Below the pieces are notes generated by a model that saw nothing but the letters and a program-made list of their open reading frames with translations, was not told where the DNA came from and ran no database searches. From the NCBI GenBank assembly GCA_000004985.1, contig GG738849.1: a DNA stretch of 64,000 bases; one strand, given 5' to 3'. The position numbers were made by a program, and so were the translations under genes. Origin of the DNA: Naegleria gruberi. Taxonomy: Eukaryota. Of this stretch, positions 3,870-63,695 are shown in pieces (position 1 is the first letter of the stretch; each line of letters starts with the position of its first letter).

Positions 3870-3878
3870 TCTCCCGCC
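3870..3878. promoter_or_regulatory. TCTCCCGCC (E2F-type) element next to a short hairpin
   Basis: TCTCCCGCC at 3870..3878 lies in the divergent spacer between the Myb gene (ATG 3640) and ATG 4021. It is followed by the hairpin CGGTTT-GCA-AAACCG. Confidence 0.3.
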
Positions 3879-17306: not shown

Positions 17307-17377
17307 GCATTAGTAGTGTAACGGTATCATACCAGCCTTCCAAGCTGGTGACCCGGGTTCGACTCCCGGCTAATGCA
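17307..17377 (+). tRNA. tRNA-Gly (anticodon UCC)
   Basis: GCATTAGTAGTGTAACGGTATCATACCAGCCTTCCAAGCTGGTGACCCGGGTTCGACTCCCGGCTAATGCA. The 7-bp acceptor stem is GCATTAG/CTAATGC and the anticodon loop is CTTCCAA. The T-arm is GGGTTCGACTCCC, and T-runs lie 5-14 nt downstream. Confidence 0.95.
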
Positions 17378-21020: not shown

Positions 21021-21091
21021 CTCGAGTGCCGGGAATTGAACCCGGGTCGCCAGAGTGACAGTCTGGAATGCTACCACTATACCACACCCGA
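21021..21091 (-). tRNA. tRNA-Asp (anticodon GUC)
   Basis: The reverse complement is TCGGGTGTGGTATAGTGGTAGCATTCCAGACTGTCACTCTGGCGACCCGGGTTCAATTCCCGGCACTCGAG. The acceptor stem is TCGGGTG/CACTCGA (one G-U pair) and the anticodon loop is CTGTCAC. A T5 run lies at 21014..21010 on the minus strand, 6 nt downstream. Confidence 0.95.
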
Positions 21092-23663: not shown

Positions 23664-23927
23664 CTACATACCAGTCGATCTCTTATAAATTAAAATACCC
23701 CACAAAATACTCCAAACCCATCCGACAACAAACCATGAAGTAAACATTTGCAAAAGACCGAATATTATGCAATAAGTCTTCTTCTTATCCTTCTTAGTCA
23801 AAAAGGCAGCAATAAAGGTACCCAAACCTGGCCAGATAATATTCAAAATCAACAAAATAATTGGCCAGTTATCCTCCACCTTTGGAATATACTTTAACAA
23901 TGATTTTAAGAGACCTGCTTCAGACAT
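23664..23927 (-). CDS. small 2-TM protein, SPEC3/Stum-like
   Basis: 87 aa containing ..IIWPGLGTFIAAFL.. and ..VVGWVWSILWGILIY... This resembles the GW(I/V)WS(I/V)xWG motif of that family as I recall it. Confidence 0.4.
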   Translation of the reverse strand: MSEAGLLKSLLKYIPKVEDNWPIILLILNIIWPGLGTFIAAFLTKKDKKKTYCIIFGLLQMFTSWFVVGWVWSILWGILIYKRSTGM

Positions 23928-23964: not shown

Positions 23965-23978
23965 AAATGGCGCCAAAT
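23965..23978. promoter_or_regulatory. W-run/GGCGCC/W-run motif (E2F-like site)
   Basis: AAATGGCGCCAAAT, with GGCGCC at 23969..23974, about 45 bp upstream of the minus-strand ATG at 23927. Confidence 0.4.
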
Positions 23979-33116: not shown

Positions 33117-35064
33117 TTAATATTTAATGTCTTGGACTGGTTCATCATTTCGGGATGTACTCAAAGAGGAAACACTCTGTGTGTCAGAAATCATGCTGAG
33201 TATATTACTGCTGGTAAGTTTGTTCTTATTACTCCTTCCTGCTAGTACTGACAAGTTGGTATTACTCTGGCTGTCTAAAAGTTGTTCTCTCATGAATTTA
33301 ACTTGTTGAATGAGTTCTGAATTTTCTGAAACCAAATCATCGTATGCTCCTGTTAATATTGAGAGTTTGTCATTATTTTGCATGTCCCTTTTCTGCATTT
33401 GCTCCTCCAACCTTAAAATATAATTCTCTGATTGGGTCAGTTCTTTTGAAACAATTTTCCTACTCTTTCTTTCAGATTCCAGTTTTTCCTTTAGTTTTTC
33501 ATTTTCTACCTTTAATTGTTCAATTATTCCCTTTTGAATTTCTTGTTTAATCCTCATTTCCTTAACAATCCTTGATTCTTTCGGGGTTATGCTTAGAGAA
33601 GAAGAATCGAGAAAAGACTTTAAAGAGCTAGTTAAATTTCTTGTCCTTTCAGTTTGGGATCCATCACTTTCAATGGTCAATTTTTGAAGTAAGGAACTAA
33701 TTTCTGATGTGAGAGATTCTCTTAAGCTCTCTGTTGCTCTTTCATTTTCATACCTATATTTGATTTCTTCTATTTTCTCTCGAAGAGAATAAATTACACT
33801 ATCCTTTTCACTAGATGTCATATTCAACACGGGGAATTTCTTTGGAGTACTATTCAGTAGGGATTGAGAAAGCTTTACGATGGGTGAGTCTTCAGCGCTT
33901 GGAATATCTTTTCGCAAGGTACTATTAACACTTGACAATTCTTCATCAGAAAGATGTTTAGAGAGAGACCGTCTTCCTTTCTTTACGTATGGTCTTTGAC
34001 TTCTAGTGAGGAATTTCTCCAACTCTTCAACTTGTGTTACAAATTGCTCTTCCAAATCGTTCTTTTCCTTAGTGACATCGTCGAGAGCATATTTCAACAC
34101 TCTGTTTGCCTCAATCATTGAATAGAGATCATTATCGGTCTCTAACCCATCATCGTCAGGAATTGGGGTAATGTCAATATTGTGTACAGAATCTATGAGA
34201 AGAGATGAATTTCTTGAAGAAGAATTTACACTTTTGCTCTAGGAATTAGAATTTGTAAATCGTCATCTGCTTGCACTTCCTGATCAATTGAATCATCCAA
34301 ATTGTACACTAATTTTTGAATAGGTTGAGGTGAAGAAGGGTCTTCAGTATTAAAATCCAATTGACTTGCACCATTCGGAGAATCACTAAGGCCAGTCGAA
34401 ATTGAACTAATTTCCGAATTTTCCTCATCCTCTGTATCAGTCATTTTGTATTTATCTGTTGCATATATTCTTCTTGAAAGTGGTTTTTGAGGAGAGGAAG
34501 TTTTTGAGGATTTCTTAATGGCTGATTGAAACATTCTCTCAACTTTTAATCGTTGGGCTTTTTGAATATCAAAATTTTCGGAAATGGCATTACAATATTC
34601 GGATGATGTATTATTGTTCAAAATATAATTATTATTATTATTCGATCGAGATGGGATGGGTTGGAAGTATTATCTTGTTGATGGTAGGGTAATTCTCTGG
34701 AGTAGGAAAACTTTCTAGGAGCATTGCTTCGAATTGGATTGCTGGATGGATGATGGTAATTGATAATATTTTCCTGATATTGTTGAAGATTTTGTTCGGA
34801 AAGAGTTGGATAATGGCTTGATGAATTTAAGGATGAAGAAGAGGAATTGGCAAAGGATGAATTTCTCGATATGACTGCAATGGAAGTACTAGATGATGAG
34901 AGCGAGGGCCTTCTTCCCCGAGAGGAGGTGGATTTCATTGGGGAATTTGAGGCTGCTACAATAATGGCAGCACTTCTCATTCCCAGCTCATCGAGGTAAT
35001 TGCCCTCTCCAATCAATGATGATGATGAAGATGAGGAAAGCAATGATGAGGTCGGTAGACTCAT
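33117..35064 (-). CDS. coiled-coil protein; the gene model is broken by one unresolved frame change
   Basis: There are three ORFs. ORF 34621..34226 joins 34238..33117 in frame through a 38-nt GTGCAA..TAG intron at 34276..34239. ORF 35064..34618 cannot be joined to 34621.. by any GT-AG intron. That frame change lies at or near the (AAT)5 tract at 34628..34642. Confidence 0.4.
34628..34642. repeat. (ATT/AAT)5 microsatellite at a frame break
   Basis: attattattattatt on the plus strand. It reads as N5 in the downstream frame and IIII in the upstream frame. Confidence 0.8.
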
Positions 35065-35115: not shown

Positions 35116-35129
35116 TTTTGGCGCCAAAA
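35116..35129. promoter_or_regulatory. perfect palindromic E2F-like site TTTTGGCGCCAAAA
   Basis: 14-bp perfect palindrome, about 55 bp upstream of the minus-strand ATG at 35064. Confidence 0.45.
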
Positions 35130-35218: not shown

Positions 35219-37045
35219 CTATTTCTTTCTGAGAGTGAGTCCAGTGAGTTTGGACAGAGTGAAAAATACTAATGTGTGTAAAGTCACCAGATAAAAGAAG
35301 AGGAATAAACGACCAAGTTTGTGGGATAGCATTAAACCACTACATCTATAAATAAGCTTCTCAGCTGCATTCATATTGTTTAGTCTGTCTTCTCTTTCCT
35401 TCTTGTGGAATCTCTTGAAAGGATCTAATTCTTGTTCATAGAGCTTTTCGTACTTGTTTTGAATTGGTTCATATTCCATATTTGATTCAGGATTTGGTTT
35501 GTTTCTACTTGTTGATGTATTATTACCAAATGATTGTAAATATTTAGTCTTTTCATACAGCTTCAAATTCTCCTTTCTGAGTTTTCCAACCTCATTTTCA
35601 ACTTGTTCCATTTGCTGTTTCAATTGGGCATATTGCTCCTCCATGACATTATTCTTGTCTCTGAAACGGTTACGTTGCTCTGTAAGAATTGATATGAGGG
35701 ATTGAGCATCAGTGGATTCTTCATTCTTTGGTGATTTCATTAAATTGTCCACATTGGATTCCAATCTCTCAATCATGGATGCTTGTTCCTTTGTTTTGGC
35801 TGAAAGTTGAGTGAGTTCTGTGTTGAGCGTTTCGATTTTTTCTTCCTTTTCTCTATTGTTTTGATTGGATTTGGTCAAATCATTTTCCAATTTCATAACC
35901 TTTTCCTTCAATAATTGCTCAACAGTCTTCTCTTGCAAGTTATTGTCATAGCCAAATTCCAATTGTTGAAGTGTGTCAATTCGTTCTCTAAGTTTGGACA
36001 TTTCCTCTCTGGATGGTCTTTGATTCAATTCATGTTGAGTATTCAACAAGAGTTGATGTTGTTGGTGGATTTGATCTTGTAGTTGTTGGATATTTTCCAT
36101 TTTTTCTCTATTTTCCTGTTTAAGGTCATTAATCTTTGTCAGATATTCAGTTTTCATTTCATTAATCATTAATTCCTCATCTACTCGTCCTTCAGAATTT
36201 TCAACAACAGATTTGGCTTGAGATTTCAATTCTAAAATTTCATTTTCATACTTTAACACTTGCTCATGATGCATATCGGATTGATACTGTTTTGATGCTT
36301 CAATTTCTTCAATCTTAGTCTTTAGTTCATAATTTACATTTTGAGTCTCATTGTACAAGTTTGATAAACGGTCATTTTCATTTTTCAACTCCTTGAGTTC
36401 ACTTTGCATTATCAGCTCACGATCTTTGAATTTTTGAATCATTAACTCGTGCTCTTTGGATAATTCATTTTGATTCTTGTACTTTAAAATTTCTTCCTCT
36501 AGCTTTCTAATTGTAACTTCTTGATTTTTCAAATGAGTAAATTCATGTTCATATTCAGTCAATTGTTTTTTCAATTCCTTGATTGTATTTTCATATTCTT
36601 CCTGGCTAGCCTGTTGTTGTGACATTTGTTGATATTTACAAATAATGTGATATGGATCAGGGGCTTCTCTTATTGGCTGATACAATTCCAAGAATAATTT
36701 TTCAGCATTCATTCCTCTGTTTGTCAGAGAATCAATCTCATCTTGATACGATTTGAGCAGTTTTGAGAATGAATTTAATTTTTCATCATTATTCAACTTT
36801 TTAAAATTCTTTGTAAGAGTTGCCAAGTTTTTTCTACTATTAGCTGTTTGTTCTCTAACCTTTACAATATTTAATCCTTGTTCATCAAAAAAGTCTCTCT
36901 TTTTATCTAATTCAATAGTTTTCCACAATTCTTTACATTTTTGTAAATCATTTAAATACATCATTGTTACTGATGAGGTGGGAATTATCGGATCGTTATT
37001 AGAACCACCCGATGATGATGAAGGGACTGTTGGTTGCAACGACAT
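35219..37045 (-). CDS. CASP: CASP (CUX1-alternative-product type golgin, tail-anchored)
   Basis: Near-colinear with CASP. Matching blocks are ELWKTIELDKKRDFFDEQG..SRKNLATLTKNFKK..LLKSYQDEIDSLTNR..EAPDPY, LKNQEVTIRKLEEEI, ILTEQRNRFRDKN, LYEKTKYLQSF and YEQELDPFKRFHKKERE. There is a C-terminal TM (LFLFFYLVTLHTLVFFTL). Confidence 0.9.
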   Translation of the reverse strand: MSLQPTVPSSSSGGSNNDPIIPTSSVTMMYLNDLQKCKELWKTIELDKKRDFFDEQGLNIVKVREQTANSRKNLATLTKNFKKLNNDEKLNSFSKLLKSYQDEIDSLTNRGMNAEKLFLELYQPIREAPDPYHIICKYQQMSQQQASQEEYENTIKELKKQLTEYEHEFTHLKNQEVTIRKLEEEILKYKNQNELSKEHELMIQKFKDRELIMQSELKELKNENDRLSNLYNETQNVNYELKTKIEEIEASKQYQSDMHHEQVLKYENEILELKSQAKSVVENSEGRVDEELMINEMKTEYLTKINDLKQENREKMENIQQLQDQIHQQHQLLLNTQHELNQRPSREEMSKLRERIDTLQQLEFGYDNNLQEKTVEQLLKEKVMKLENDLTKSNQNNREKEEKIETLNTELTQLSAKTKEQASMIERLESNVDNLMKSPKNEESTDAQSLISILTEQRNRFRDKNNVMEEQYAQLKQQMEQVENEVGKLRKENLKLYEKTKYLQSFGNNTSTSRNKPNPESNMEYEPIQNKYEKLYEQELDPFKRFHKKEREDRLNNMNAAEKLIYRCSGLMLSHKLGRLFLFFYLVTLHTLVFFTLSKLTGLTLRKK

Positions 37046-37247
37046 TTTTTTTATGTGATGATGTCATTCGATTTTGTCAGTGGGCAATTTTAGATAGGTT
37101 TCTTTAGTTTATTTGATTAATATAAAATTGAAATTAGCAAATAATTTAACTTACGGATTATCATTATGATTTGTTCTATGATGGATTGAACATGTATTTA
37201 ATGAAAACTAGTTGTTATATATTATTAAAATTTTAAAACTAAAAAAA

Positions 37248-37550
37248 ATGGTAAGTTTTATTGGAGGGATGTGCTAATAATATTCTCATCAATTTAAAAA
37301 TTAGTCATCATCGGATCAAGCCAATCAATTGGAATTATTGAAGAATAAATTTGTTGGAGTTGGACATGCTGATATCACAAAATTTGAATGGGCTGTAAAT
37401 CAACATAGAGATAGTTATGCATCATATGTATCACATTACCCAATGTTATCATATTTTGCCATGATTGAAAATGAATCCGTTCATAGAGAAAGATATCAAT
37501 TTATTGAACGAATGATTAAACCTTGTGGAAATAAGCCAACTAAGCAATAA
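37248..37550 (+). CDS. SF3B5: splicing factor 3B subunit 5 (SF3b10)
   Basis: Exon 1 is the ATG only (37248..37250), followed directly by GTAAGT. The intron spans 37251..37304 (54 nt). Exon 2 is 37305..37550: SSSDQANQLELLKNKFVGVGHADITKFEWAVNQHRDSYASYVSHYPMLSYFAMIENESVHRERYQFIERMIKPCG. Confidence 0.9.
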
Positions 37551-37551
37551 T

Positions 37552-38385
37552 TTATTTTAACAACCAATACAGTAATACAAACGAAACAACTTGTAATGCA
37601 AGTTCAACCTTATACTTTCCAATAAAATTTAAAATATATCTAGTAAGTGAGGTTAGACCTCCACTGTTGCTACTTCTGGATTGTGATTCAATTGATGGTT
37701 TTTGATTATTCTGAGTTACAGAAGTGTTAGATTGGGTGGCTGGTATTGATTCCTTATGTGTCACTTGTTTTGTTGATGGTGGCAGAGCAGAATATCCTCC
37801 GTCATCATAATCCTCGTCTTGTGGCTCTGCAAAATATGCACCTCCAGATTGTTTGAATTTACTATTTCTATACATGTAGGAGAGCTTGTTAAAATTATTT
37901 TGATGCTCAGTAATGGCTTGTGCTTCTTTCATTTGTGATTCCTCTCGTTCCAAATAATCTTCCAATGTATGTCTTTCTTGTTGAGGAAGTGTTTTCATTG
38001 ATTCATTTCCGAGTAATTCTTTTGCCTTGTCAAATAATTGAAGTTTAATGCAAAATTGAATGTAGAGAGTTAAAGTTTTTTGAGATAAACTTGTTGGAGG
38101 AATTTCAAATAATTTATGTACTGATTCATATTCTTGTATTTCATAATAACATTGAATGAGTGTTGAAATAATAAATTCTTGAAGTTGCGAATTTCTAATA
38201 TTTAAAGTAATATTGTCAATACTTGTTCCGTATTGTTTTCCTATACATCCAATACATTCTTTAAATTGTTTTAATTTGAAATGTTTTTTAATTGTTGTGA
38301 TGGTCCACAAATCTACCTTTCCAACCTCCGATAATAATGATGCACCTGATGATGAAGAGCTACTACTTGTTGATGTACGGAGCAT
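37552..38385 (-). CDS. hypothetical tail-anchored protein (TPR-like N-domain; PEX26-like is only a guess)
   Basis: 277-aa ORF with a single C-terminal TM (VELALQVVSFVLLYWLL). Its stop codon at 37552..37554 lies 1 nt from the SF3B5 stop. Confidence 0.4.
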   Translation of the reverse strand: MLRTSTSSSSSSSGASLLSEVGKVDLWTITTIKKHFKLKQFKECIGCIGKQYGTSIDNITLNIRNSQLQEFIISTLIQCYYEIQEYESVHKLFEIPPTSLSQKTLTLYIQFCIKLQLFDKAKELLGNESMKTLPQQERHTLEDYLEREESQMKEAQAITEHQNNFNKLSYMYRNSKFKQSGGAYFAEPQDEDYDDGGYSALPPSTKQVTHKESIPATQSNTSVTQNNQKPSIESQSRSSNSGGLTSLTRYILNFIGKYKVELALQVVSFVLLYWLLK

Positions 38386-38501
38386 TTTTAATAATAATGA
38401 TTTATTATTGAAATTACTTTTTGCGCCTTAAATTTAAAAAAGTGAACGTTAATCAGTACTGGTTATTTGAAAACTCTCATAAGGAATCATCTTTAAAAAA
38501 A

Positions 38502-40633: not shown

Positions 40634-40659
40634 TTTTGGCGCCAATTTTGTTTCCCGCC
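40634..40659. promoter_or_regulatory. tandem E2F-like sites: TTTTGGCGCCAATTTT plus TTTCCCGCC
   Basis: GGCGCC is at 40638..40643 and canonical TTTCCCGCC at 40651..40659, 45-65 bp upstream of ATG 40702. Confidence 0.5.
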
Positions 40660-40701: not shown

Positions 40702-41980
40702 ATGGAACCAATTGATGACTCTGATCTCGAAAATGCTATGCAGGATACTAACTCTACAAATCTCTCCACTCTAGAGAAAAAGTTAAAGGAGAAGAATCAG
40801 CAGCTGAAAAAGGTTTGTATTATCTTGTTGTCTACGAATGTCAACACAACATAGCTATCAAAAGCTTTCTATGCTCTCCAACAAGAGAAGAGAGACTTGG
40901 AAGAGTATTGTATTGTGTTGGAATCGGAAAATATGGAATTTAAAAAAGTTAGGGAACAAATGGATTTCCTCAAAAGCAAAGACGAAGACATTGCTAGACA
41001 ACATCAAAAGCTTTTAGAAAATGAGGAAAGACACATTCAAAAATTGGAAAGAGATATTGAAAAGTATAAAGACGAGAAGAAGAAACTTCAATCAAAGATC
41101 AAGGATTACTTTCTTCCTGAAATCAAAAAATTGCAAATGCTTAGTTCAAAACTGGAAAAGAGTAACATTATGCAAAAAAATCAAATCAAGGAATTTAAAC
41201 GAGAAGTCCAAGAAAAGAATCAAAGGATTAATGAAATGATTGAAGAAAATAGAAGGGATGAATCTCTTCAGAATATCAAGTTTCTTAGAGATCAAAATTC
41301 GACACTTCAAGCAGATCTTAAAGTACTGAAACAAAAACTTGTCACAAAGAACGCATTATGTGAAGATCAGTATGTTGAGCTTCAAGATCTGAGAGCAAAA
41401 GTCGAGGATTTGGATAACAAGCTAGCAAGGAAAACAAATTGGAATCAACAGACTCAATTATTTTACACAGAAAAGAAAGAGCACATAGATGTATTAAAGA
41501 GGGAAAAGATGGCACTCACACGACAACTTAAAAAAGAAGGTAAAAAAGCAACGAAACGAGAAGAAATTATTACAGACCTACTGGAAAGAAATGCTAAACT
41601 GAGAGAGGCCCTTATATGTACGAGTGTTCCTCCAGCCACAGTAGTTGACCATGTTGTCGAAAAATCATTCTATGACAATGTTTCGAATCAACTTAAACTT
41701 ATACAGCAACAGTTAGATATGGACGTGGTTGGTGATCCGTAAGTACTATTAGTTTTATAAGATTATTAATTATCAAAATAATCATTTGTTTAAAAACAGA
41801 GAGCACATTGAAACCAACAGACTTGAAAAGGTAGTTCAAGAAATTCCAATCACATTCCCAACATCCCCACCAAGATTTGATGATAACAAAGAATTAACAA
41901 AAGAACTGAAAAATGAAAGTGCAAGACTTCTCACAAAATCAGTGTTTTTAACGAACGAATTTAAGGAAGTCAACATTTAA
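40702..41980 (+). CDS. coiled-coil protein
   Basis: Exons are 40702..40812, 40855..41738 and 41800..41980. Introns are 42 nt (GTTTGT) and 61 nt (GTAAGT). The protein shows heptad-rich K/E/L sequence throughout. Confidence 0.55.
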
Positions 41981-47807: not shown

Positions 47808-47958
47808 ATCAAGTATTATAAGTTGTGTTACTATTCCGTAAATAATCTTGAAGATAAGCTGTCGCCAATTTTTTGTTCAAAATTTGTGGGCTTCTTCAAG
47901 AGTTGAGTGGAATCATAAGAAATATTAAATAATAATATATTAATATTAATCAAAAAAA

Positions 47959-55892: not shown

Positions 55893-58413
55893 TTAATTCT
55901 CCACCAAGTATTCTCTGATTGTCGTATGATAACCCTTCAGTAAATGCTCAACAAACTTTTCATCTCTATTCTGTTCAATAGTATTGATGAGGTGAAGTAA
56001 CTTTTTGGAGGGAACATCCTCACCCTTCTCCATCAAATAGGTTTCTAAATAGACCTTCTTTTCCTTTAGCTCAGATAGTATATTCTCTACACTTGTATTG
56101 TTGTTGAAGAGATTGAAAATAGAGTGGTATTGGAGAATCTTTTGATTTTGATTCTTATTTTCCAACTCGTACATCCATTCTACAATATTGATTAGGAAAG
56201 ATAATAATAAGAAATGTTGATGAAAACAAAGAATACTTACCATCACCTTCAACTTTGGATTCTCTGATAATTTCGTAAATAGTTTGTGGAGTATTGTCGT
56301 GGGTTGTGTCTTTCTGATGTGAGTTGGAGGAGAATACTGAATTGTGTGGGATTATTCTGTCGACTGGTCTGACAACAAAGTGCTCATTATTTGCAGTTTG
56401 CTCGTCGACAAGGATGGATATTCTGTACAATGAAGCCAAATGGCTTAACCTTTGAGACATTTTACATGCATTGGAAATAATAGAGTAGACTCTTGAGGTT
56501 TTAGTTCCCAAGTTTCCAACGTAAGAAGAGCGAGTAGAGATTCCTATGAAGCACTCGATCTGAGTTTCGCTCAGATCTTGTTGTTGGTTGATTTGATCCA
56601 TAACTTTTCTAATTTTAAGAGCTAACTCTTGAGCTACCAAGTTGGACTTTTTCTTCTTGCTTTCTATTATTATTTGGTATTCATCTAGGGCAATAATTTG
56701 ATAATCACATTGGAAAACCTTTGCTGCTTCTGAAATACTAGTCAAAATTTTAGGGAATATACTTGAAACTGTTTCATGAGAATGATTTTTCAACAAGTTA
56801 CTCAATCTTACATTCACTACTGAGCACTCTTTGTGTGTGAGACCTAATTTAAAAAGACCACCCTTGTGATGAGTACCACTATCATTTGTTCGATTTCTGT
56901 CACTAAAACTACTGTTCAACCCAGTGCTAACCGAAATATCTGTTCCTTCTTGCTTCTTTTCTGCAATAGGTTCTTCCTCAATGTTTTGATTCTGTTGTAA
57001 TTGGAGGAATACTGATTCAGGAACAAAGGCCTTAATTTCTTTTAACCACTTAACTGTAATGGACAAGCTTGTATAGACTTGATTTAATTCATTGAACATG
57101 GAATTGGAATGTCTGACATTCTCAAGCTCGAAGATTTTGATAAATTCAAATTGGTTTCTGAGATAGGAAATTGGTTTCAAAATAATCATTGAAAGCACGA
57201 CTGAAAATGCAATACCAATAAGCGTAATCAAAACGGCAACACCAACCGAAACACCAATACTAATGTGAGTGGTTTGCAAAATATCTTGTGTTACTACAAT
57301 GACATACATATCCCATTTGATATTTTCAAATTCGTAAACAACATGTCGCACAAGATAATCAACACCATTTGAGGAAATTGAAGTACCTTTTGGTAGCTTA
57401 CTGATATCACCAATAGTTGAATTGATATCTTTCATTAACTTGCCTGCATTTCTAGCCGAAATATCAAAAATACTCAATCTTGACTTTTCATCAAATGTTG
57501 TACAATTGATACTGCCAGCTATTACATAGTCGTTTGAGCTTTCTTTGATAATTACAAAACCTTGGTCGAAGACTTGGACCTTCTTCTCAAGAAAATCACT
57601 AATACCAGAAAGTGGCTTGACAATTCTTGCAATACCTTTCAAATGTTTGGTTCCTTGAGCGAATAATTGTTGGTCATACACCTTGGCACCAAATGAAATG
57701 GACAAGGTTCCGTTTGTAACAATGTAAGGATAACTGAAAGCTCCCTCCTTCCCAATTCTAGCTGCTTCACTCACAGCAACATAGTAAAAGTCCTTCTTTG
57801 CCACATTGTAAGGAGTATAATCAATAGTTTCATTTAACACAAGAAGAGTACCATTCAACAAATAGGTATCACGAATTGAGCCAATGAAACCAGGAGGTTG
57901 ATAAGAGTAGACAATTTCCTGTTTACCTTGTTTTCCAATAATGGTATAGGAATATCTTTCTGAAGGATTTGTAAATGCATAACCAGCACTCAACCCACTC
58001 ACTTTGAAAGGAGTATAAAAGTATTTTCTAAAGTAATCAGTTGTAGCCAATCCATAATTATAGTGATCTGCCATCGTCATGCCAGTATTTTTCATTTCGT
58101 TCAAAACCGAGTCAATATAAACACTCATCTTTTCTTCAAGCAAACCAAGAACATTTTCAGTTAGTTCATCCACTGATTGATTCATCAATACAAATACAGA
58201 GACATAGATAGAAACAGAACACAACAAGACAAGCATTATCATTGAGACAATTATAAATGTCTTTAAAGAGCAACAAGTTGTTTTCTTTCCAGTGCCAAAG
58301 AAGGACCCATCATCAGAGAAAGATGCAATACTCTGGTCCTCCTTATGATTTTCTATAACACTTGCAGTGGTGGGTGTTATCTTCATGTCTTTTTTAAAAA
58401 GAATTGTTTTCAT
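55893..58413 (-). CDS. receptor-type class III nucleotidyl cyclase: extracellular sensor domain, TM, linker and cyclase-homology domain
   Basis: Exons are 58413..56241 and 56179..55893, with a 61-nt GTAAGT..TAG intron at 56240..56180. An N-terminal TM is followed by a Cache-like ectodomain of about 330 aa. A second TM (VGVAVLITLIGIAFSVVLSMIIL) and a HAMP-like linker follow. The cyclase-like region is ..VVNVRLSNL..FIGISTRSSYVGNLGTKTSRVYSIISNACKMSQRL... The first ATG is at 58413, and the ORF track starts at a GTG at 58479. Confidence 0.6.
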
Positions 58414-58594: not shown

Positions 58595-58608
58595 TTTTGG
58601 CGCCTTTT
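58595..58608. promoter_or_regulatory. W-run/GGCGCC/W-run motif (E2F-like site)
   Basis: TTTTGGCGCCTTTT, with GGCGCC at 58599..58604, 120-190 bp upstream of the cyclase start candidates. Confidence 0.35.
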
Positions 58609-59039
58609 TTCTGTACAATTTTAGCTAAATTGTCAGTTCAATTGATACACAACTATGCCTCGATAATCCTTTAGTATGTATCGGTGTAGTCGAGAATGTC
58701 TAAAATCACTTTTTTTGTTCTACCTCAATGATCAGGAAAGGATGGATTTTGATAAAATTTGTTTAAATTTCTTCTGAGATTGAGGAAAAGCCAATGAAAC
58801 CCATATCTAGTGTAAGTAAATTCATGCACTTTTTAGAGAAGTGAAGGCCAAGAAATAGTGTCTTCTTTTCATACGCCCAAGGAAGATGATCTATGTTATT
58901 TACAAGAAAGAATCTGACAATTATTAGATTTTGAACTCAAATTAGTTTAGAATAGGTTTAATTTTGTCTAATGAGTGGAAAAGTTGATTCCAAACAACAA
59001 CAAATGAAAAGTTTATTGAAGGAACTATTTGAATTGCGT

Positions 59040-61010
59040 TTGGTTTCTTACTTCTAAATCAAATGAAAGATCTATTGTAGGATCCAGAATGCTTTCAATC
59101 GTTGCTATGAGATATTGTGTAGATTCCAACGAGCAATCCAGCATTTTACGTTTATGGCACAACACGAACAATCAGTGGATGATTAATTTTCTCCAGAATC
59201 TTCTTTGAAGAATCCAACAAGTTGTCACTAAGCATGGAGTAATTCTTCACTTCTGAAAGAGCTTGAAGAATATCTCTCAATATTTGAATACAGAACAGAC
59301 CTGGATCAGAAAAATTATGATCGTAAAGTTGACGCTCTGAAAGAAGTTTTTCTGTGACTGTTATTATATAATCATTGCTAACGTTTTACACAAAAAATTA
59401 CTCTCAATATGTTTTACAATATTCATGGCGTCCTGATTTTCATATCTTTTTTCGGATAATTTGAAGAAAATGTTGCATTGATTTTTCATTTCTCCATGAC
59501 CATAAATTTGCCTACTTCCTTCGCAATCGATTTCAGCATTCTTAATGCCATACTTTTCTAACGTACTAATATCGAATTGTAGAATATCTTTTTTAGATTT
59601 CGAATTATTCTCAGGTGTGTGGATTAACATGTCGTCTTTAATTTGAAGGGATAGCATTTCCTGATTAAGAATATTTAAATCATCTTGTAGCATTGCCTTA
59701 AAACAAAACATATCTAAATTAAGTAATAACAAGACAGTAAACTGTTTTTTATCTCACCAAAAAAATAACAAACACCATACCCAATAATGATTGTGTTATC
59801 ACTCAACTCTGTCTCACCTTTAGAAAAAATGGAGGTTCACGACCACCCAAATATCTTTCTTGAATTGAATAGTTGGCCTCTGGCAAGGAAATGAAATTTT
59901 GAAACGATCTCAAGTTAGATGTACGATGAACTTTTTGCATACTATCTTTGATATCTTTCATGTCGAGATGTCAATTCCACCATTTTACTATAGACTTTTG
60001 ACGTTGTATCATAAAGTGTACTCCAACTCGCTCATTTTCCTTATAATCTACCTAGAATTGTATCACACAGTTATGGCATCTGTACTAGTTTTGAAACAAT
60101 TCATACCCTCTCATTCAGTCAATCAGGAAATGCTCAATGTCAACAATGTTTATCCATTTGAACACTCCATCTCAGAAAAAGTTCATCCAATGAGATACGA
60201 GTTTTTATTGTTACGGGTAGCATATACAATCAGAATTCAACATCTCAACAACGAAACCAGATCTAATCTTTAGTCAATAAAGTTGAAAACAACCATCTTG
60301 TTATGGCTTCTGCAGTTCTGTCATCTTTTAGTCTTAGTTTTTCAAAAGCATGTCCAATCTTGGCTTCGTCATCTCCATTAAAACCTATCAATGCGGCCAC
60401 AATGATTTCCAGGTCAGAACCTTCCGTATCATTGGCATCTTTTGCTCTATTTTGCTTAGTCCAACACCACTGAAGCAGTTAACAATTCTTGGATGGACTC
60501 AACTGACCATGTGGAACAAGTATCCATATCTAATTGGTGCTGTCTCATTCTGAAAATTCCTGTTTTCCTTTTTAGAGTTTGGATTTTGGAGAAAGGATTT
60601 TCTTTTTTAAAGTATTTTCGTTTGTTCTATTGATTGTTTTATATTCCTTACTTCCTTCAGATAGACCTTCTGTAGATGAACTTTCCACTTCTGGTATGAG
60701 TTTTACAACTTCTTCCCCAAGAAATCAACAGGATACTTGGACACCCAACTATCATATAAAAGCTCCATAAATTCTTTCAACCTAGATATGCTTCTTGAAA
60801 ATAAGTGTACCTGAAGGGAAGTCTCTGCCATTTTGTTTTTATTAGATGGTGTGCAATCTGTTCGATAAACTTGCCCATAAACATGGGCTTGTATTGCAAA
60901 TGCTCTTATTGTTCTTTTGGCTTGTTTTCCTCCAGGAACGTAAATAGCTAGTGTGAAATGGGTGGGTATTTCATACGTAACAGAAACTTGCTTGTTATCT
61001 CCATTTAGAA
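59040..61010 (-). other. unresolved minus-strand coding potential (one or two intron-rich orphan genes, or decayed gene fragments)
   Basis: Protein-like segments lie in shifting frames. Examples are LNGDNKQVSVTYEIPTHFTLAIYVPGGKQAKRTIRAFAIQAHVYG.., ..AKDANDTEGSDLEIIVAALIGFNGDDEAKIGHAFEKLRL.., ..ERYLGGREPPFFLK|GTGAGA.. and AMLQDDLNILNQEMLSLQIKDD... I could link some through GT-AG introns, but I could not build a complete model or recognise a family. Confidence 0.2.
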
Positions 61011-61679
61011 GCTAGACATGCCGTGGGCCATGGTAGTAGTTGTATTTTTTTTTGTGTTAAAAATACATACCAACCGTAGTCTCCTTAGTTAACAGTCTAT
61101 TACTACAGGAGTTTCAAATGATGAATTGGATGTTGAATATCAGCAAGTTTCTAATTAAATAATAATAAAACTCATTATACACAAACACTACTTCAAAGGC
61201 ACGGTCATGATTCAATAGAATTTACTGACAAAGAAACATGCTGGCACTTCATGAAACATTCAATAAGAAGATTTTCTCTCCAAACTTAATGCCAGGTTTT
61301 GAGATACTGGTGGGCTTTGAATTTAACGAAAATGATTTGCATGTTGTTTGCCTTCTTGATGTGTTTTGAAGCTAAGGGAGTAGTGCACAATTTCCTTTTT
61401 GCTTAAAATATTTACCTCAAAACGGCATGGTAACTATTGACGATGTGGAATGGGAGTCTTCTTTTCATTGAAGGACTAACCACTTTCTGCTTGCATTGTA
61501 AAATCTCTAAACCTAAAAATAACTTCAAATACAAGATTGAAACAACAAAACCTTCAAATCCAAAAATACATATTCTAATTTTAAATTCAAACCAAAAAAA
61601 ACAACTTTTTGTGTAAACCTACTCGTTAAATTGCCTCTTTTGCAAAACGAAAATATAATTAAACCTATTAATTTCAAAA

Positions 61680-63093
61680 ATGATGATTAACAATACTATT
61701 AACGCTCAAGACAATATTGCTCTCTACAAGTACAAGCAACAATTAGAACAATTGGAAAATTGCAAAGGCTTGGGAACATCTGTTATTACCTTGTTGGTTA
61801 GTTGCAAGACTTCATTGACTCAAGTTATTTCTCAAATGGATCAACGTTTGACAAAGTCTAACAATATCAAGTCGTGTATTTAACAGGAATAGTGTTCAAG
61901 TGGCTACAAGGACTGTTATATCCAGATTAAAGCTATTGAAACAGACACCTGCTAATGGTTTGGCAATTTTCTGTGGAATGGTAAATCCAGATTCTGCTCC
62001 AGGTTTATTCTCTGATGATGAATCTAGTTTGGTGGTTGATAACGGTTTAGAAGGCTCTGACAATAATGCACATGTTGATTTGAAGAAATTGTGTGTTATG
62101 ATTGAACCACCAAATCCAATTGACAGCAATCTTTACTATTGTGACGATTGTTTCCATGTTGAACAGTTGAGAAGTCAATTGCAAGAATTTAATTCTGGAA
62201 AAACTTATGGTGTAATTGTTATTACAGGTACAGGTACTTTGTATGGTACTTTACGTGGAAATACCAGTAGTATTTTACGTGAATTTTCTCATGAACTTCC
62301 AAAGAAACATTCTAAGGGAGGTCAATCTCGTGAAAGATTTGCTAGAAATAGAGAAATTGCCAAGAATGAATATCTCAAGATTATTGCAGAGAAGGCAAAT
62401 GGTTTATTCGTTTCTTCAGCTCTCAATGCTCCAACTGTTGATGCTATTATTCTTGCTGGATGTGCAGAATTGAAGAATGAATTACTTTCTCTCAAATCTG
62501 ATTGTTTAGACTATAGATTGAGAACTAGAATTTTAACTGTTGTTGATGTTGCATATGGTGGCAGACCTGGATTTTATCAAGCTATTCAACTTGCACAAAA
62601 TGAAATTCAAGATTCTAGATTCTTGGAAGAGAGTGAAACCATTCAAGAGCTATTGAATTTACTTTCCAAAGGATCCAAGGCTGTTGTTGGTTTGGAAGAA
62701 ACCATGTTTGCTATTGCAAGTGGTTGGGCTAGTAAGGTAATCTTGTGCGAAAAGCAATCATCCTTGAAGAGAGTTACACTCTCTGATGATTCTGTTCACT
62801 ATTTGGAAGAAGACAAGATTAAATTCTTATTGGAAAGAAATTCTGTCAAGGTTGCTAGAATTGAAAACCTTATTGATTATTTAGTTGACAATTACAAGAA
62901 AATTGGTATTGACAAGTTGTCTCTTGTTACTGATTGTACTAATGAGGGAAATATGTTTTTGAAGGGCTTCTCAGGTATTGGTGCTATTCTAAAGTTTGAT
63001 GTAAATGTTGCCTCTCTTCTCTCTGAGGAGAAGGATAACTTTGAAGCTTTTGAAGAGGAAGCCTACAATGAAGACTTGTCCGAATTCTACTAA
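61680..63093 (+). CDS. ETF1: divergent eRF1-family release factor encoded in two frames (frame 0 at 61680..61883, frame +1 from 61852/61882 to 63093)
   Basis: Frame 0 encodes ..GLGTSVITLL..TKSNNIKS-CI-TAA. Frame +1 encodes NRNSVQVATRTVISRLKLLKQTPANGLAIFCG..LYYCDDCFHVEQL (YxCxxxF)..LPKKHSKGGQSRERFAR (GGQ)..VDVAYGGRPGFYQAIQLA..NYKKIGIDKLSLVTDCTNEGNMFLKGFSGIGAILKF. Gapless alignment to canonical eRF1 needs exactly a +1 shift between 61875 and 61881. Confidence 0.8.
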
Positions 63094-63228: not shown

Positions 63229-63242
63229 AAATGGCGCCATAG
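63229..63242. promoter_or_regulatory. W-run/GGCGCC motif (E2F-like site)
   Basis: AAATGGCGCCATAG, with GGCGCC at 63233..63238, about 64 bp upstream of ATG 63300. Confidence 0.35.
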
Positions 63243-63299: not shown

Positions 63300-63695
63300 A
63301 TGTCTGAAATTGTATATTCTGTTATGGAGTACTTGTTGGATGAACAATTCGGTGATGCTGTAGGTAAATTAAAAACATGATTCTAAATAATGGATGATAA
63401 GGTAGAAGAGTTCGGTAATAAGCACTGTGATATCTTTGAAATTGATGAAGAAGAACAAAAATTGGAATATACAAATGTATACAACAAATTCGTAAAGCTT
63501 TTTGAATCCAAAGTTGAAGAATTGCTTAAACAAAAGGGAGTCACACCTCAAGAATTTTATATTGAATGTAAAAGATTGTCTGAGGAAGAAAACGATCAAG
63601 AAATTGTAGAGTTCTTGTTAGCACTTTCAGATTATCAAGTATTTTACAACATGATGAAGGAAATCAAGTTGAGAAAACTAGGAAAACAACAATAA
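63300..63695 (+). CDS. BART-domain protein (ARL2BP/CFAP36-like)
   Basis: Exon 1 is 63300..63359 (MSEIVYSVMEYLLDEQFGDA). A 42-nt GTAGGT..AAG intron spans 63360..63401. Exon 2 is 63402..63695 (VEEFGNKHCDIFEIDEEEQKLEYTNVYNKFVKLFESKVEELL..EFLLALSDYQVFYNMM). The pattern is typical of the ARL2-binding BART fold. Confidence 0.6.

What the first reader, a model, noticed from the sequence alone, without database searches (positions are those of the whole stretch)
35116..35129. All five GGCGCC hexamers are promoter-proximal, A/T-flanked E2F-like palindromes
GGCGCC occurs five times in the 64 kb. I expect about 1 by chance at this base composition (a rough estimate). None of the five is in coding sequence.

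Each is embedded in A/T runs:
- AAATGGCGCCAAAT, hexamer at 23969
- TTTTGGCGCCAAAA, hexamer at 35120, a perfect 14-bp palindrome
- TTTTGGCGCCAATTTT, hexamer at 40638
- TTTTGGCGCCTTTT, hexamer at 58599
- AAATGGCGCCATAG, hexamer at 63233

Four of the five lie 45-65 bp upstream of an ATG (23927-, 35064-, 40702+ and 63300+). The fifth lies 120-190 bp upstream of the cyclase gene. TTTSGCGCSAAA is the classical E2F/DP site. Related CCCGCC-type elements occur at 3870 (TCTCCCGCC) and 40651 (TTTCCCGCC). A one-mismatch copy (GTCGCCAATTTT at 47861) lies in the NSE1/UNC93 divergent spacer.

The associated genes include coiled-coil proteins, a BART/CFAP36-like protein and an SMC5/6 subunit. This is compatible with a cell-cycle or basal-body/differentiation regulon.
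Basis: partly seen in the sequence, partly recalled or inferred. Interest (0 to 1): 0.5.

Follow-up and report, generated by a model that had tools for sequence, protein, structure and literature searches.

The report
E2F-type promoter sites in Naegleria
Five copies of the DNA sequence preferred by the cell-cycle regulator E2F sit just upstream of genes in this Naegleria gruberi stretch, and related species keep the same element upstream of matching genes, so these are very probably real gene switches, some of them on centriole and cilium genes.

Summary
The window is Naegleria gruberi DNA. GGCGCC occurs five times, at the stated coordinates, against about 0.5 expected. All five copies are non-coding and all fit WWTGGCGCCWWW. 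Every TTTSSCGC match in the 64 kb lies at these sites.

The core equals the human E2F1 SELEX/JASPAR optimum, TTTGGCGCCAAA. N. gruberi encodes E2F, DP, an E2F7/8-like DEL and RB. Its E2F recognition helix is identical to that of human E2F4 in the E2F4-DP2-DNA crystal structure.

New evidence comes from related species:
- Orthologues of the coiled-coil gene at 40702 keep [A/T]TGGCGCCAAA upstream of their ATG in two other species, one with the second CCGCC site as well.
- CEP44 carries such a site in two species.
- The only GGCGCC in 20-kb loci of N. fowleri and of N. lovaniensis is orthologous, in the Prp19/bromodomain spacer.

Three things count against a simple picture. The CFAP36 site is not conserved in N. 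fowleri or N. lovaniensis. CDK1 orthologue promoters lack the motif. No binding or expression data could be obtained.

Verdict: these are functional, conserved, E2F-type promoter elements, a new member of a known kind. A centriole/flagellum regulon is suggested (Spec3, CFAP36, CEP44) but not shown.

The parts
23965..23978 (.). Site 1, AAATGGCGCCAAAT. It lies 41 nt upstream of the ATG of an 87-aa Spec3-family gene.
23664..23927 (-). Spec3-family small membrane protein gene, the target of site 1. This exact 87-aa sequence is not in the public protein collection.
   Evidence: Pfam PF15795, E=1.5e-12. Exact look-up found nothing.
35116..35129 (.). Site 2, TTTTGGCGCCAAAA, a perfect 14-bp palindrome. 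It lies 55 nt upstream of the ATG at 35064(-) and 99 nt downstream of the CASP stop codon.
33117..35064 (-). Serine-rich/coiled-coil gene 'g2', built from three ORF segments. It has no Pfam match, and its start codon is inferred only.
40634..40649 (.). Site 3, TTTTGGCGCCAATTTT. It lies 58 nt upstream of the ATG at 40702(+). It is conserved upstream of the orthologues in L011 and L010.
40651..40659 (+). Second site, TTTCCCGCC, of the E2F7/8 (DEL) type. It lies 7 nt after site 3. The counterpart in L011 is TTACCGCC at similar spacing.
40702..41980 (+). Lineage-restricted coiled-coil gene 'g3'. Exon 1 is about 40702-40812, and further exons are 40897-41742 and 41786-41980. Only five homologues exist in 1.84 billion representative proteins.
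58595..58608 (.). Site 4, TTTTGGCGCCTTTT. It lies 186 nt upstream of the first ATG (58413) of a divergent cyclase ORF. The target gene is uncertain, because an ORF-poor 3.2 kb lies on its other side.
56155..58413 (-). Transmembrane protein with a weak adenylate/guanylate cyclase domain, the possible target of site 4.
   Evidence: Pfam PF00211, E=0.0067, below the curated cut-off
63229..63242 (.). Site 5, AAATGGCGCCATAG. It lies 61 nt upstream of the ATG at 63300(+). It has the core and one A/T flank but lacks the TTT/AAA tract.
   Evidence: (not matched by TTTSSCGC)
63300..63695 (+). CFAP36 (BART-domain) gene. Exon 1 is 63300-63359, the intron is 63360-63401, and exon 2 is 63402-63695.
   Evidence: Pfam PF11527, E=2.4e-19. 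UniRef name 'Cilia- and flagella-associated protein 36'. Alignment A3.
38419..38432 (.). Possible degenerate site, TTTTGCGCCTTAAA. It lies 38 nt upstream of the ANAPC3-like ATG at 38385(-). This is uncertain, and the motif is not found upstream of the N. lovaniensis orthologue.

Best explanation
The five GGCGCC elements are functional, promoter-proximal binding sites of the E2F type.

Proposed mechanism
- An E2F-DP heterodimer, and possibly the two-domain E2F7/8-like DEL protein at the CCCGCC variant, binds the CpG-containing core through the RRxYD recognition helices. It reads the flanking T/A tract on one side.
- The site sits within a few tens of nucleotides of the start codon, at or just next to the transcription start.
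- Bound E2F then activates the gene, or represses it by recruiting the RB pocket protein.

Shown here
- The motif is real and enriched, and in the N. gruberi window it is confined to non-coding DNA.
- It is identical to the E2F optimum.
- It is conserved at orthologous promoters in other Naegleria-type genomes.
- The genome encodes the cognate factors with an unchanged recognition helix.

Inferred
- That E2F/DP is the protein that binds.
- The sign of the regulation.
- The regulon. The annotated targets (Spec3 family, CFAP36, CEP44, plus uncharacterised coiled-coil proteins) suggest it overlaps the centriole/flagellum differentiation programme.
For: 1. Enrichment and architecture
- 5 GGCGCC against 0.5 expected.
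- WWTGGCGCCWWW gives 9 strand matches against 0.10 expected.
- All TTTSSCGC matches in 64 kb are at these sites, and all are non-coding.
- Apart from A/T-only words (and one miscounted word), GCGCCA, CGCCAA and GGCGCC are the most over-represented hexamers in the 120 nt upstream of 34 gene starts.

2. Identity with the E2F motif
- The E2F1 HT-SELEX/JASPAR consensus is (A/T)TTGGCGCCAAA (PMC5449588, PMC11580471).
- Across species, 9 of 11 sites carry TTTGGCGC on at least one strand, in either orientation relative to the gene.

3. Cognate factors
- Medina et al. 2016 (PMC4862756) list NgruE2F, NgruDP, NgruDEL and NgruRB.
- The E2F and DP sequences are in NCBI as NAEGRDRAFT_54558 and NAEGRDRAFT_50903.
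- The E2F DNA-binding domain aligns to human E2F4 in PDB 1CF7 at E=7e-25, with [24 protein letters not shown] identical. DP aligns to DP-2 at E=1e-28.
- The marked-box domain matches E2F4/5 (5TUU/5TUV).
- The C-terminus ends in EGVSDLF, like the NEGVCDLF near the C-terminus of Nematostella E2F5. In animal E2Fs this region binds RB.

4. Conservation
- g3 orthologues keep the site. In L011 it is TTGGCGCCAAAA plus TTACCGCC, 37 nt from the ATG. In L010 it is AATGGCGCCAAAAAAATG, and that is the only GGCGCC in 13.2 kb.
- L011 has three A/T-flanked GGCGCC in 6.1 kb, each 5-37 nt upstream of a start codon. One of them is upstream of CEP44.
- L010 CEP44 has GGCGCT...CCGCCAAAAAAATG upstream.
- The single GGCGCC in N. 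fowleri L005 and in N. lovaniensis L006 is orthologous. It lies in a conserved block within an otherwise diverged Prp19/bromodomain spacer.
Against: - There is no binding, expression or transcription-start data.
- The CFAP36 site is not conserved. N. fowleri and N. lovaniensis have none in about 180 to 300 nt upstream examined. A metagenomic relative has only ATTCGCGCAA.
- The one classical E2F-target orthologue that could be fetched, CDK1/cdc2, has no such site in N. fowleri or N. lovaniensis.
- No S-phase gene (MCM, PCNA, RNR) was available to test.
- Motif density is lower in N. fowleri and N. lovaniensis: 2-3 per roughly 60 kb, one of them inside a retrotransposon ORF.
- Site 4 is far from its putative gene.
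- Site 5 lacks the T/A tract.
- The statistics on flanks and distances were defined after seeing the data.
Confidence: 0.62

Rival explanations
1. The element is a real promoter motif, but it is bound by a different factor. This could be a Naegleria-specific factor that binds the TGGCGCCA palindrome as a homodimer, and the likeness to E2F sites would then be coincidental.
For: - The core is a perfect palindrome, and T/A flank it symmetrically in most sites.
- The motif-bearing genes are not classical S-phase genes, and the CDK1 orthologue lacks the motif.
- Binding was not tested.
Against: - The match to the E2F optimum extends over 12 bp, including the T/A tract.
- A second, E2F7/8-type CCCGCC/CCGCC site accompanies it at the g3 promoter in two species.
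- The E2F and DP recognition helices are unchanged, so E2F/DP should bind these sites unless something prevents it.
- The known families that share the half-site fail on spacing (NFI: TTGGC-N5-GCCAA, from my own knowledge) or are absent from Naegleria (RFX; PMC12183034).
Confidence: 0.2
2. The element acts in the mRNA, as a 5'-UTR signal for translation control or for the mRNA co-localisation reported during Naegleria differentiation, and not as a DNA-binding site.
For: - The sites lie 5-61 nt upstream of start codons. In L010 and L011 they abut the A-run before the ATG, so they are probably transcribed.
- Differentiation mRNAs are co-localised in Naegleria (abstract of PMC2139841).
Against: - The motif is strand-symmetric, and its T-tract occurs in either orientation relative to the gene.
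- It also serves divergent spacers: Prp19/bromodomain and TPR/CEP44.
- A palindrome without a loop forms no useful hairpin.
Confidence: 0.07
3. The pattern is chance. A rare CpG-containing hexamer happens to survive in A/T-rich spacers of a CpG-depleted genome.
For: - Bare-hexamer enrichment does not survive Bonferroni correction on the order-1 model.
- CpG observed/expected is 0.42, so any CpG word looks unusual.
- The spacers are short, so closeness to an ATG comes cheaply.
Against: - The 12-mer pattern is about 90-fold over expectation.
- 39 of 40 flank positions are A or T.
- None of the five sites is coding.
- The motif recurs independently at orthologous promoters in four other genomes.
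Confidence: 0.03

Closest known systems
Canonical E2F/DP binding sites of animals and plants (TTTSSCGC; E2F1 HT-SELEX/JASPAR TTTGGCGCCAAA)
   Same: - The 12-bp sequence is the same, with site 2 as the perfect palindromic optimum.
- The position is promoter-proximal, near the start of the gene.
- The site works in either orientation.
- The cognate E2F and DP have an identical RRxYD recognition helix, and RB is present.
   Different: - The associated genes are not the classical G1/S set. They are Spec3-family, CFAP36, CEP44, Prp19/bromodomain and lineage-specific coiled-coil proteins.
- Almost all Naegleria sites use the GGCGCC core (a single CGCGCC was seen), where animal sites use a mix of CGCGC and GGCGG cores.
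- Binding is untested.
E2F7/E2F8 (plant DEL) sites, TTCCCGCCAAA
   Same: - TTTCCCGCC lies next to site 3, and TTACCGCC lies at the same place in L011.
- CCGCCAAAAAAA lies upstream of L010 CEP44.
- N. gruberi encodes a two-domain DEL protein.
   Different: - Only a few such variants were seen.
- The second DNA-binding domain of NgruDEL has RRLND where RRxYD is expected, so its specificity is uncertain.
E2F4/5-Multicilin (MCIDAS/GEMC1) programme for mass centriole and cilium production in vertebrate multiciliated cells
   Same: - In vertebrates, E2F-type factors drive centriole and cilium genes outside the normal cell cycle (PMC12183034).
- In the Naegleria-type genomes, E2F-type sites sit on CEP44, CFAP36 and a Spec3-family gene. 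N. gruberi builds basal bodies de novo at differentiation.
   Different: - No geminin-family cofactor, co-expression or binding has been shown in Naegleria.
- Only 3 of about 10 motif-bearing genes have a centriole or cilium annotation.
- The CFAP36 site is not conserved across the genus.
CDE/CHR (DREAM) tandem elements of animal G2/M genes
   Same: These also have a GC-rich E2F-like element close to the transcription start. At site 3, TTCAAA follows CCCGCC after 1 nt.
   Different: No consistent CHR (TTYGAA) lies at a fixed 4-nt spacing in the other four promoters.
NFI/CTF palindromes, TTGGC(N5)GCCAA
   Same: The half-sites TTGGC and GCCAA are the same.
   Different: The spacing here is 0, not 5. 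NFI is a metazoan family (from my own knowledge, not tested here).

Membership tests
E2F/DP binding site | Sequence fits TTTSSCGC, or the palindromic optimum TTTGGCGCCAAA | tested here: met
   - Four of five window sites match TTTSSCGC, and site 2 matches on both strands.
- Site 5 has the GGCGCC core only.
- 9 of 11 sites across species match.
- The consensus is taken from PMC5449588 and PMC11580471.
E2F/DP binding site | The organism encodes E2F and DP with the conserved DNA-contact motif (RRxYD) | tested here: met
   - NgruE2F and NgruDP sequences come from PMC4862756 source data.
- They are present in NCBI as NAEGRDRAFT_54558 and NAEGRDRAFT_50903.
- They align to 1CF7 chains A and B with the recognition helix identical or nearly so.
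E2F/DP binding site | Location close to the transcription start of the regulated gene | tested here: inconclusive
   - The sites lie 5-61 nt upstream of start codons in 4 of 5 window cases and in L010, L011, L005 and L006.
- No transcription-start data were available.
- The spacers are short.
E2F/DP binding site | Evolutionary conservation at orthologous promoters | tested here: inconclusive
   - Conserved: g3 in three genomes.
- Conserved: CEP44 in two genomes, one copy degenerate.
- Conserved: the Prp19/bromodomain spacer in N. fowleri and N. lovaniensis.
- Not conserved: CFAP36 in N. fowleri and N. lovaniensis.
- Orthologues of the other three genes could not be fetched.
E2F/DP binding site | Presence on classical cell-cycle targets (MCM, PCNA, RNR, cyclins, CDK1) | tested here: not met
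   - Only CDK1/cdc2 orthologues could be fetched (L007-L009). They have no E2F-like site within about 440 nt upstream.
- S-phase genes were not available, so the test is very incomplete.
E2F/DP binding site | Physical binding by E2F/DP, and dependence of expression on the site | not testable with these tools
   This needs EMSA, DAP-seq or ChIP, plus reporter mutagenesis.
CDE/CHR (DREAM) element | CHR (TTYGAA) at a fixed short distance downstream of the GC-rich element | tested here: not met
   Only the g3 promoter has TTCAAA next to CCCGCC. The other four promoters have no CHR at comparable spacing.
NFI palindrome | TTGGC and GCCAA half-sites separated by 5 nt | tested here: not met
   The half-sites abut (TTGGCGCCAA) in every site.
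Centriole/cilium differentiation regulon (functional grouping) | Motif-bearing genes are induced together during the amoeba-to-flagellate differentiation | not testable with these tools
   - Expression tables of Kennard et al. are not held, and Fritz-Laylin & Cande 2010 is not held.
- Annotation alone gives Spec3 family, CFAP36 and CEP44.

The most novel reading that the evidence does not exclude
In Naegleria the ancient E2F/DP(/DEL)-RB module is wired to the programme that builds basal bodies and flagella de novo when amoebae stop growing. E2F-type sites would then be the missing cis-code for centriole and cilium genes in an organism that lacks RFX, FOXJ1 and XAP5. This would mirror the E2F4/5-Multicilin programme of vertebrate multiciliated cells and would point to an ancestral link between E2F and centriole biogenesis.
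Probability: 0.25. Interest if true: 0.75.

Novelty: new member of a known kind. Interest (0 to 1): 0.5.

Why it matters
- Almost nothing is known about promoters and transcription factors in Naegleria or in Heterolobosea generally. A 2025 review states that the factors controlling cilium genes in Naegleria are unknown, because RFX, FOXJ1 and XAP5 are absent (PMC12183034).
- A short, highly specific element conserved across species, which matches a factor the genome demonstrably encodes, gives a concrete and cheap experiment: DAP-seq or EMSA with two named proteins, and a genome-wide scan set against published RNA-seq time courses.
- If the sites mark cell-cycle genes, the result extends the E2F-RB network to another deep eukaryotic branch at the level of cis-elements.
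- If they mark centriole and flagellum genes, the result bears on how de novo centriole assembly is switched on.

Tried and rejected
The cause is unknown.
- N. gruberi genes are not indexed in the contig look-up, so no further N. gruberi DNA could be sampled and no genome-wide test was possible.
- the Fritz-Laylin & Cande 2010 and Kennard 2025 papers or their supplements are not held, so co-expression could not be checked.
- only a three-gene block (ANAPC3-like, SF3b10, CASP) is syntenic with N. lovaniensis and N. fowleri. None of the motif-bearing genes lies in it.
- the CFAP36 orthologue promoters gave a negative or weak result.
- the CDK1 orthologue promoters gave a negative result.
- Pfam scans of ORFs in the ORF-poor stretch beside site 4 found nothing, so the target of site 4 stays open.
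- the RB-binding C-terminal peptide of NgruE2F found no PDB chain, because peptides shorter than 20 residues are excluded.
- literature searches for E2F or promoter motifs in Naegleria found no prior description.
- Considered and rejected as identities for the motif: CDE/CHR, NFI, the RFX X-box, and repeat or transposon remnants (the flanks outside the 14-16 bp differ).

Full report
SOURCE AND OBSERVATION. The window is nuclear DNA of Naegleria gruberi. The ORF at 35219-37045(-) is 100% identical to the N. gruberi CASP protein (NAEGRDRAFT_30519). The window has 33% G+C and a CpG observed/expected ratio of 0.42.

GGCGCC occurs exactly five times, at the stated coordinates. Dinucleotide-preserving shuffles give a mean of 0.5 and never more than 3. 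As a bare hexamer this is not decisive. It ranks 91st of 2080 reverse-complement classes (p=1.3e-4 on an order-1 model, 3.4e-6 on order 2).

The extended pattern is decisive:
- All five sites fit WWTGGCGCCWWW, with 9 strand matches against 0.10 expected.
- All six matches to the classical E2F consensus TTTSSCGC fall at four of these sites, or at the TTTCCCGCC 7 nt after site 3 (6 against 1.16 expected).
- Every SGCGCS in the window is GGCGCC.
- 39 of the 40 positions within 4 nt of the hexamers are A or T.

All five sites lie in the 29% of the window that is outside ATG-to-stop ORFs. GCGC as a whole is nearly banished from coding sequence, with 3 copies in 45 kb against 11 in 18.7 kb of non-coding DNA. 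Apart from A/T-only words (and one miscounted word), GCGCCA, CGCCAA and GGCGCC are the most over-represented hexamers in the 120 nt upstream of 34 gene starts.

GENES. The hexamer-to-ATG gaps and target genes are as follows.
- 41 nt: an 87-aa Spec3-family ORF (PF15795, E=1.5e-12).
- 55 nt: a serine-rich/coiled-coil gene, 'g2'.
- 58 nt: a coiled-coil gene, 'g3'.
- 61 nt: CFAP36 (BART domain, E=2.4e-19; named 'cilia- and flagella-associated protein 36' by UniRef).
- 186 nt: the first ATG of a divergent cyclase ORF.

The deposited N. gruberi CFAP36 model starts at an internal Met, inside what is really an intron. My spliced model aligns end to end with the N. fowleri and N. lovaniensis proteins.

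The other genes in the window with a Pfam assignment are mostly of housekeeping type. They include eRF3-like, Nop53, TRAP-alpha, Elongator Iki1, frataxin, thiolase, importin, UNC93/MFS, NSE1, an RRM/PWI protein, mannosidase, aquaporin, CASP, SF3b10 and eRF1-like genes. None has the motif.

One caveat applies to the distances. Three of the spacers are only 150-200 nt long, so closeness to an ATG is less remarkable than a comparison with all non-coding DNA suggests.

WHAT THE MOTIF MATCHES. The human E2F1 HT-SELEX/JASPAR consensus is (A/T)TTGGCGCCAAA (PMC5449588, PMC11580471). Site 2, TTTTGGCGCCAAAA, is that sequence.

The source data of Medina et al. 2016 (PMC4862756) contain N. gruberi E2F, DP, a two-domain E2F7/8-like DEL, and RB. 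The E2F and DP sequences are in NCBI as NAEGRDRAFT_54558 and NAEGRDRAFT_50903.

Against solved structures:
- The E2F DNA-binding domain hits human E2F4 in the E2F4-DP2-DNA complex 1CF7 (E=7e-25). The stretch [24 protein letters not shown] is identical.
- DP hits DP-2 of the same entry (E=1e-28), with NIRRRVYDALNVLMA conserved.
- The coiled-coil/marked-box region matches E2F4/5.

The C-terminus of NgruE2F ends in EGVSDLF, like the NEGVCDLF near the C-terminus of Nematostella E2F5 in the same file. In animal E2Fs this region binds RB. The factor should have unchanged specificity (inference from the 1CF7 contacts).

CONSERVATION (NEW EVIDENCE). g3 has only five homologues among 1.84 billion representative proteins. 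Two orthologue loci could be fetched.
- L011 is a metagenomic Naegleria-type contig whose g3 is about 70% identical. Its upstream region reads GTTGGCGCCAAAACTTTACCGCCCTAC, ending 37 nt before the ATG. It therefore has both the GGCGCC site and the second (C)CCGCC site at similar spacing to N. gruberi.
- L010 comes from assembly GCA_041937235.1, and its g3 is about 56% identical. Its upstream region reads TTAATGGCGCCAAAAAAATG. This is the only GGCGCC in 13.2 kb, and it lies in an 83-nt spacer.

L011 carries three GGCGCC in 6.1 kb. All are A/T-flanked and lie 5, 37 and 26 nt upstream of AAAAAATG starts. The third is TTTGGCGCCAAATTT in the spacer between a TPR gene and CEP44 (PF15007, E=6e-13). 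The L010 CEP44 (E=1e-39) has GGCGCTAAAAGAACCGCCAAAAAAATG upstream.

Independently, the single GGCGCC in 20 kb of N. fowleri (L005) and in 20 kb of N. lovaniensis (L006) is orthologous. It lies 16-21 nt upstream of the Prp19 ATG and about 190 nt upstream of a bromodomain gene. It sits inside a conserved block (TGGCGCCTTT...ATTGAACCnGAA) in a spacer that is otherwise diverged.

Over all genomes, 9 of 11 sites have TTTGGCGC on at least one strand, in either orientation relative to the gene. That pattern fits an asymmetric dimer reading double-stranded DNA.

NEGATIVE AND LIMITING RESULTS.
- The CFAP36 orthologues of N. fowleri and N. lovaniensis have no such site in the upstream sequence examined (about 180 and 300 nt). 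Only AAAATGGCGG overlaps the start codon itself. A metagenomic relative (L004) has only ATTCGCGCAA at -47 to -36.
- The CDK1/cdc2 orthologues (L007-L009) have none. They share instead a conserved block with Myb-like AACG/CCGTTA elements.
- N. fowleri and N. lovaniensis loci have fewer sites. One of them, in L008, lies in a retrotransposon ORF and lacks the TTT/AAA tract and the flanking T and A of the promoter sites, which looks like a chance copy.
- No S-phase gene, no further N. gruberi DNA and no expression table could be obtained.

MECHANISM AND RIVALS. Best explanation (confidence about 0.62): these are E2F/DP-type sites at or beside the transcription start. The CCCGCC variant is possibly read by DEL. 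They act through activation or through RB-mediated repression.

What is shown is enrichment, architecture, conservation, and presence of the factor with an unchanged recognition helix. What is inferred is the binding, the sign of regulation and the regulon.

Rivals:
- Another palindrome-binding factor (0.2).
- A 5'-UTR RNA signal (0.07). The strand symmetry, the orientation independence and the use in divergent spacers count against it.
- Chance (0.03).

CDE/CHR, NFI and RFX identities fail on spacing or on absence of the factor.

REGULON. The annotated motif-bearing genes are Spec3 family, CFAP36, CEP44, Prp19/bromodomain and a cyclase. The rest are lineage-specific coiled-coil or serine-rich proteins. 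Three centriole or cilium annotations among about ten genes is more than expected, and Naegleria builds basal bodies de novo at differentiation. This echoes the E2F4/5-Multicilin programme of vertebrates (PMC12183034). It rests on annotation alone, and the non-conserved CFAP36 site weakens it. I give it about 0.25.

NOVELTY. I found no description of E2F sites, or of any promoter motif, in Naegleria in the held literature. The E2F/DP/RB genes themselves were already catalogued. The finding is a new member of a known kind, with a testable and more interesting extension.

Noticed in passing
window 63300-63695: The deposited N. gruberi CFAP36 model (XP_002681658.1, 101 aa) starts at an internal Met (63390) that lies inside a 42-nt intron (63360-63401). 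It misses exon 1 (63300-63359). The corrected 117-aa protein aligns end to end with the N. fowleri and N. lovaniensis proteins.
   Followed up: yes
window 23664-23927 (-): This exact 87-aa Spec3-family ORF sequence is not in the 15-billion-sequence protein collection. The gene is probably unannotated in N. gruberi.
   Followed up: partly
L007/L008 9775-9860; L009 9785-9870: CDK1/cdc2 orthologue promoters of N. fowleri and N. lovaniensis share a conserved block, AAAAAACGTTA...CCGTTACACATTTAAAAT, about 150-230 nt upstream of the ATG. Its AACG/CCGTTA cores resemble Myb (MSA-type) sites. Myb-domain genes are present in these genomes, including a three-repeat Myb gene at L004 5494-7185.
   Followed up: no
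L008 3624-6678 versus L007: The NCBI N. fowleri assembly has a non-LTR retrotransposon (endonuclease, RT and RNase H) upstream of CDK1. An ENA N. fowleri assembly lacks it at that place, which suggests an insertion polymorphism between strains. Its RT ORF holds the only coding GGCGCC seen.
   Followed up: no
window 58610-61850: About 3.2 kb has no ORF over 125 aa, no Pfam hit and no Rfam hit. It lies between site 4 and the eRF1-like gene. It could be a many-intron gene, a decayed element or a non-coding locus.
   Followed up: partly
window, whole: CpG observed/expected is 0.42. GCGC occurs 3 times in 45 kb of coding DNA and 11 times in 18.7 kb of non-coding DNA. This fits methylation-driven CpG loss, with protected CpGs in promoter elements.
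   Followed up: partly
window 38419-38432: TTTTGCGCCTTAAA lies 38 nt upstream of the ATG of an ANAPC3-like gene, in a divergent spacer. It may be a degenerate copy of the motif. The motif is absent upstream of the N. lovaniensis orthologue.
   Followed up: partly
L004 4231 and 4573: Two copies of GCGCCAAAAATTT (a canonical TTTGGCGC half-site) lie 340 nt apart. They are in apparently non-coding DNA upstream of an ORF that is followed by a three-repeat Myb ORF (5494-7185).
   Followed up: no
window 17307-17377 (+), 21021-21091 (-): tRNA-Gly(TCC) and tRNA-Asp(GTC) genes. These are the only Rfam hits in the window.
   Followed up: yes
window 35219-38385 versus L001 and L002: Synteny with N. lovaniensis and N. 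fowleri is limited to a three-gene block (ANAPC3-like, SF3b10, CASP). Protein identity within it ranges from 36% to 90%, which shows how far apart these Naegleria species are.
   Followed up: yes
L010 6001-10315; L011 2797-6140: g3, a TPR gene and CEP44 are neighbours in both related genomes, but not in N. gruberi. There the gene after g3 is a 440-aa ORF with no Pfam match.
   Followed up: no
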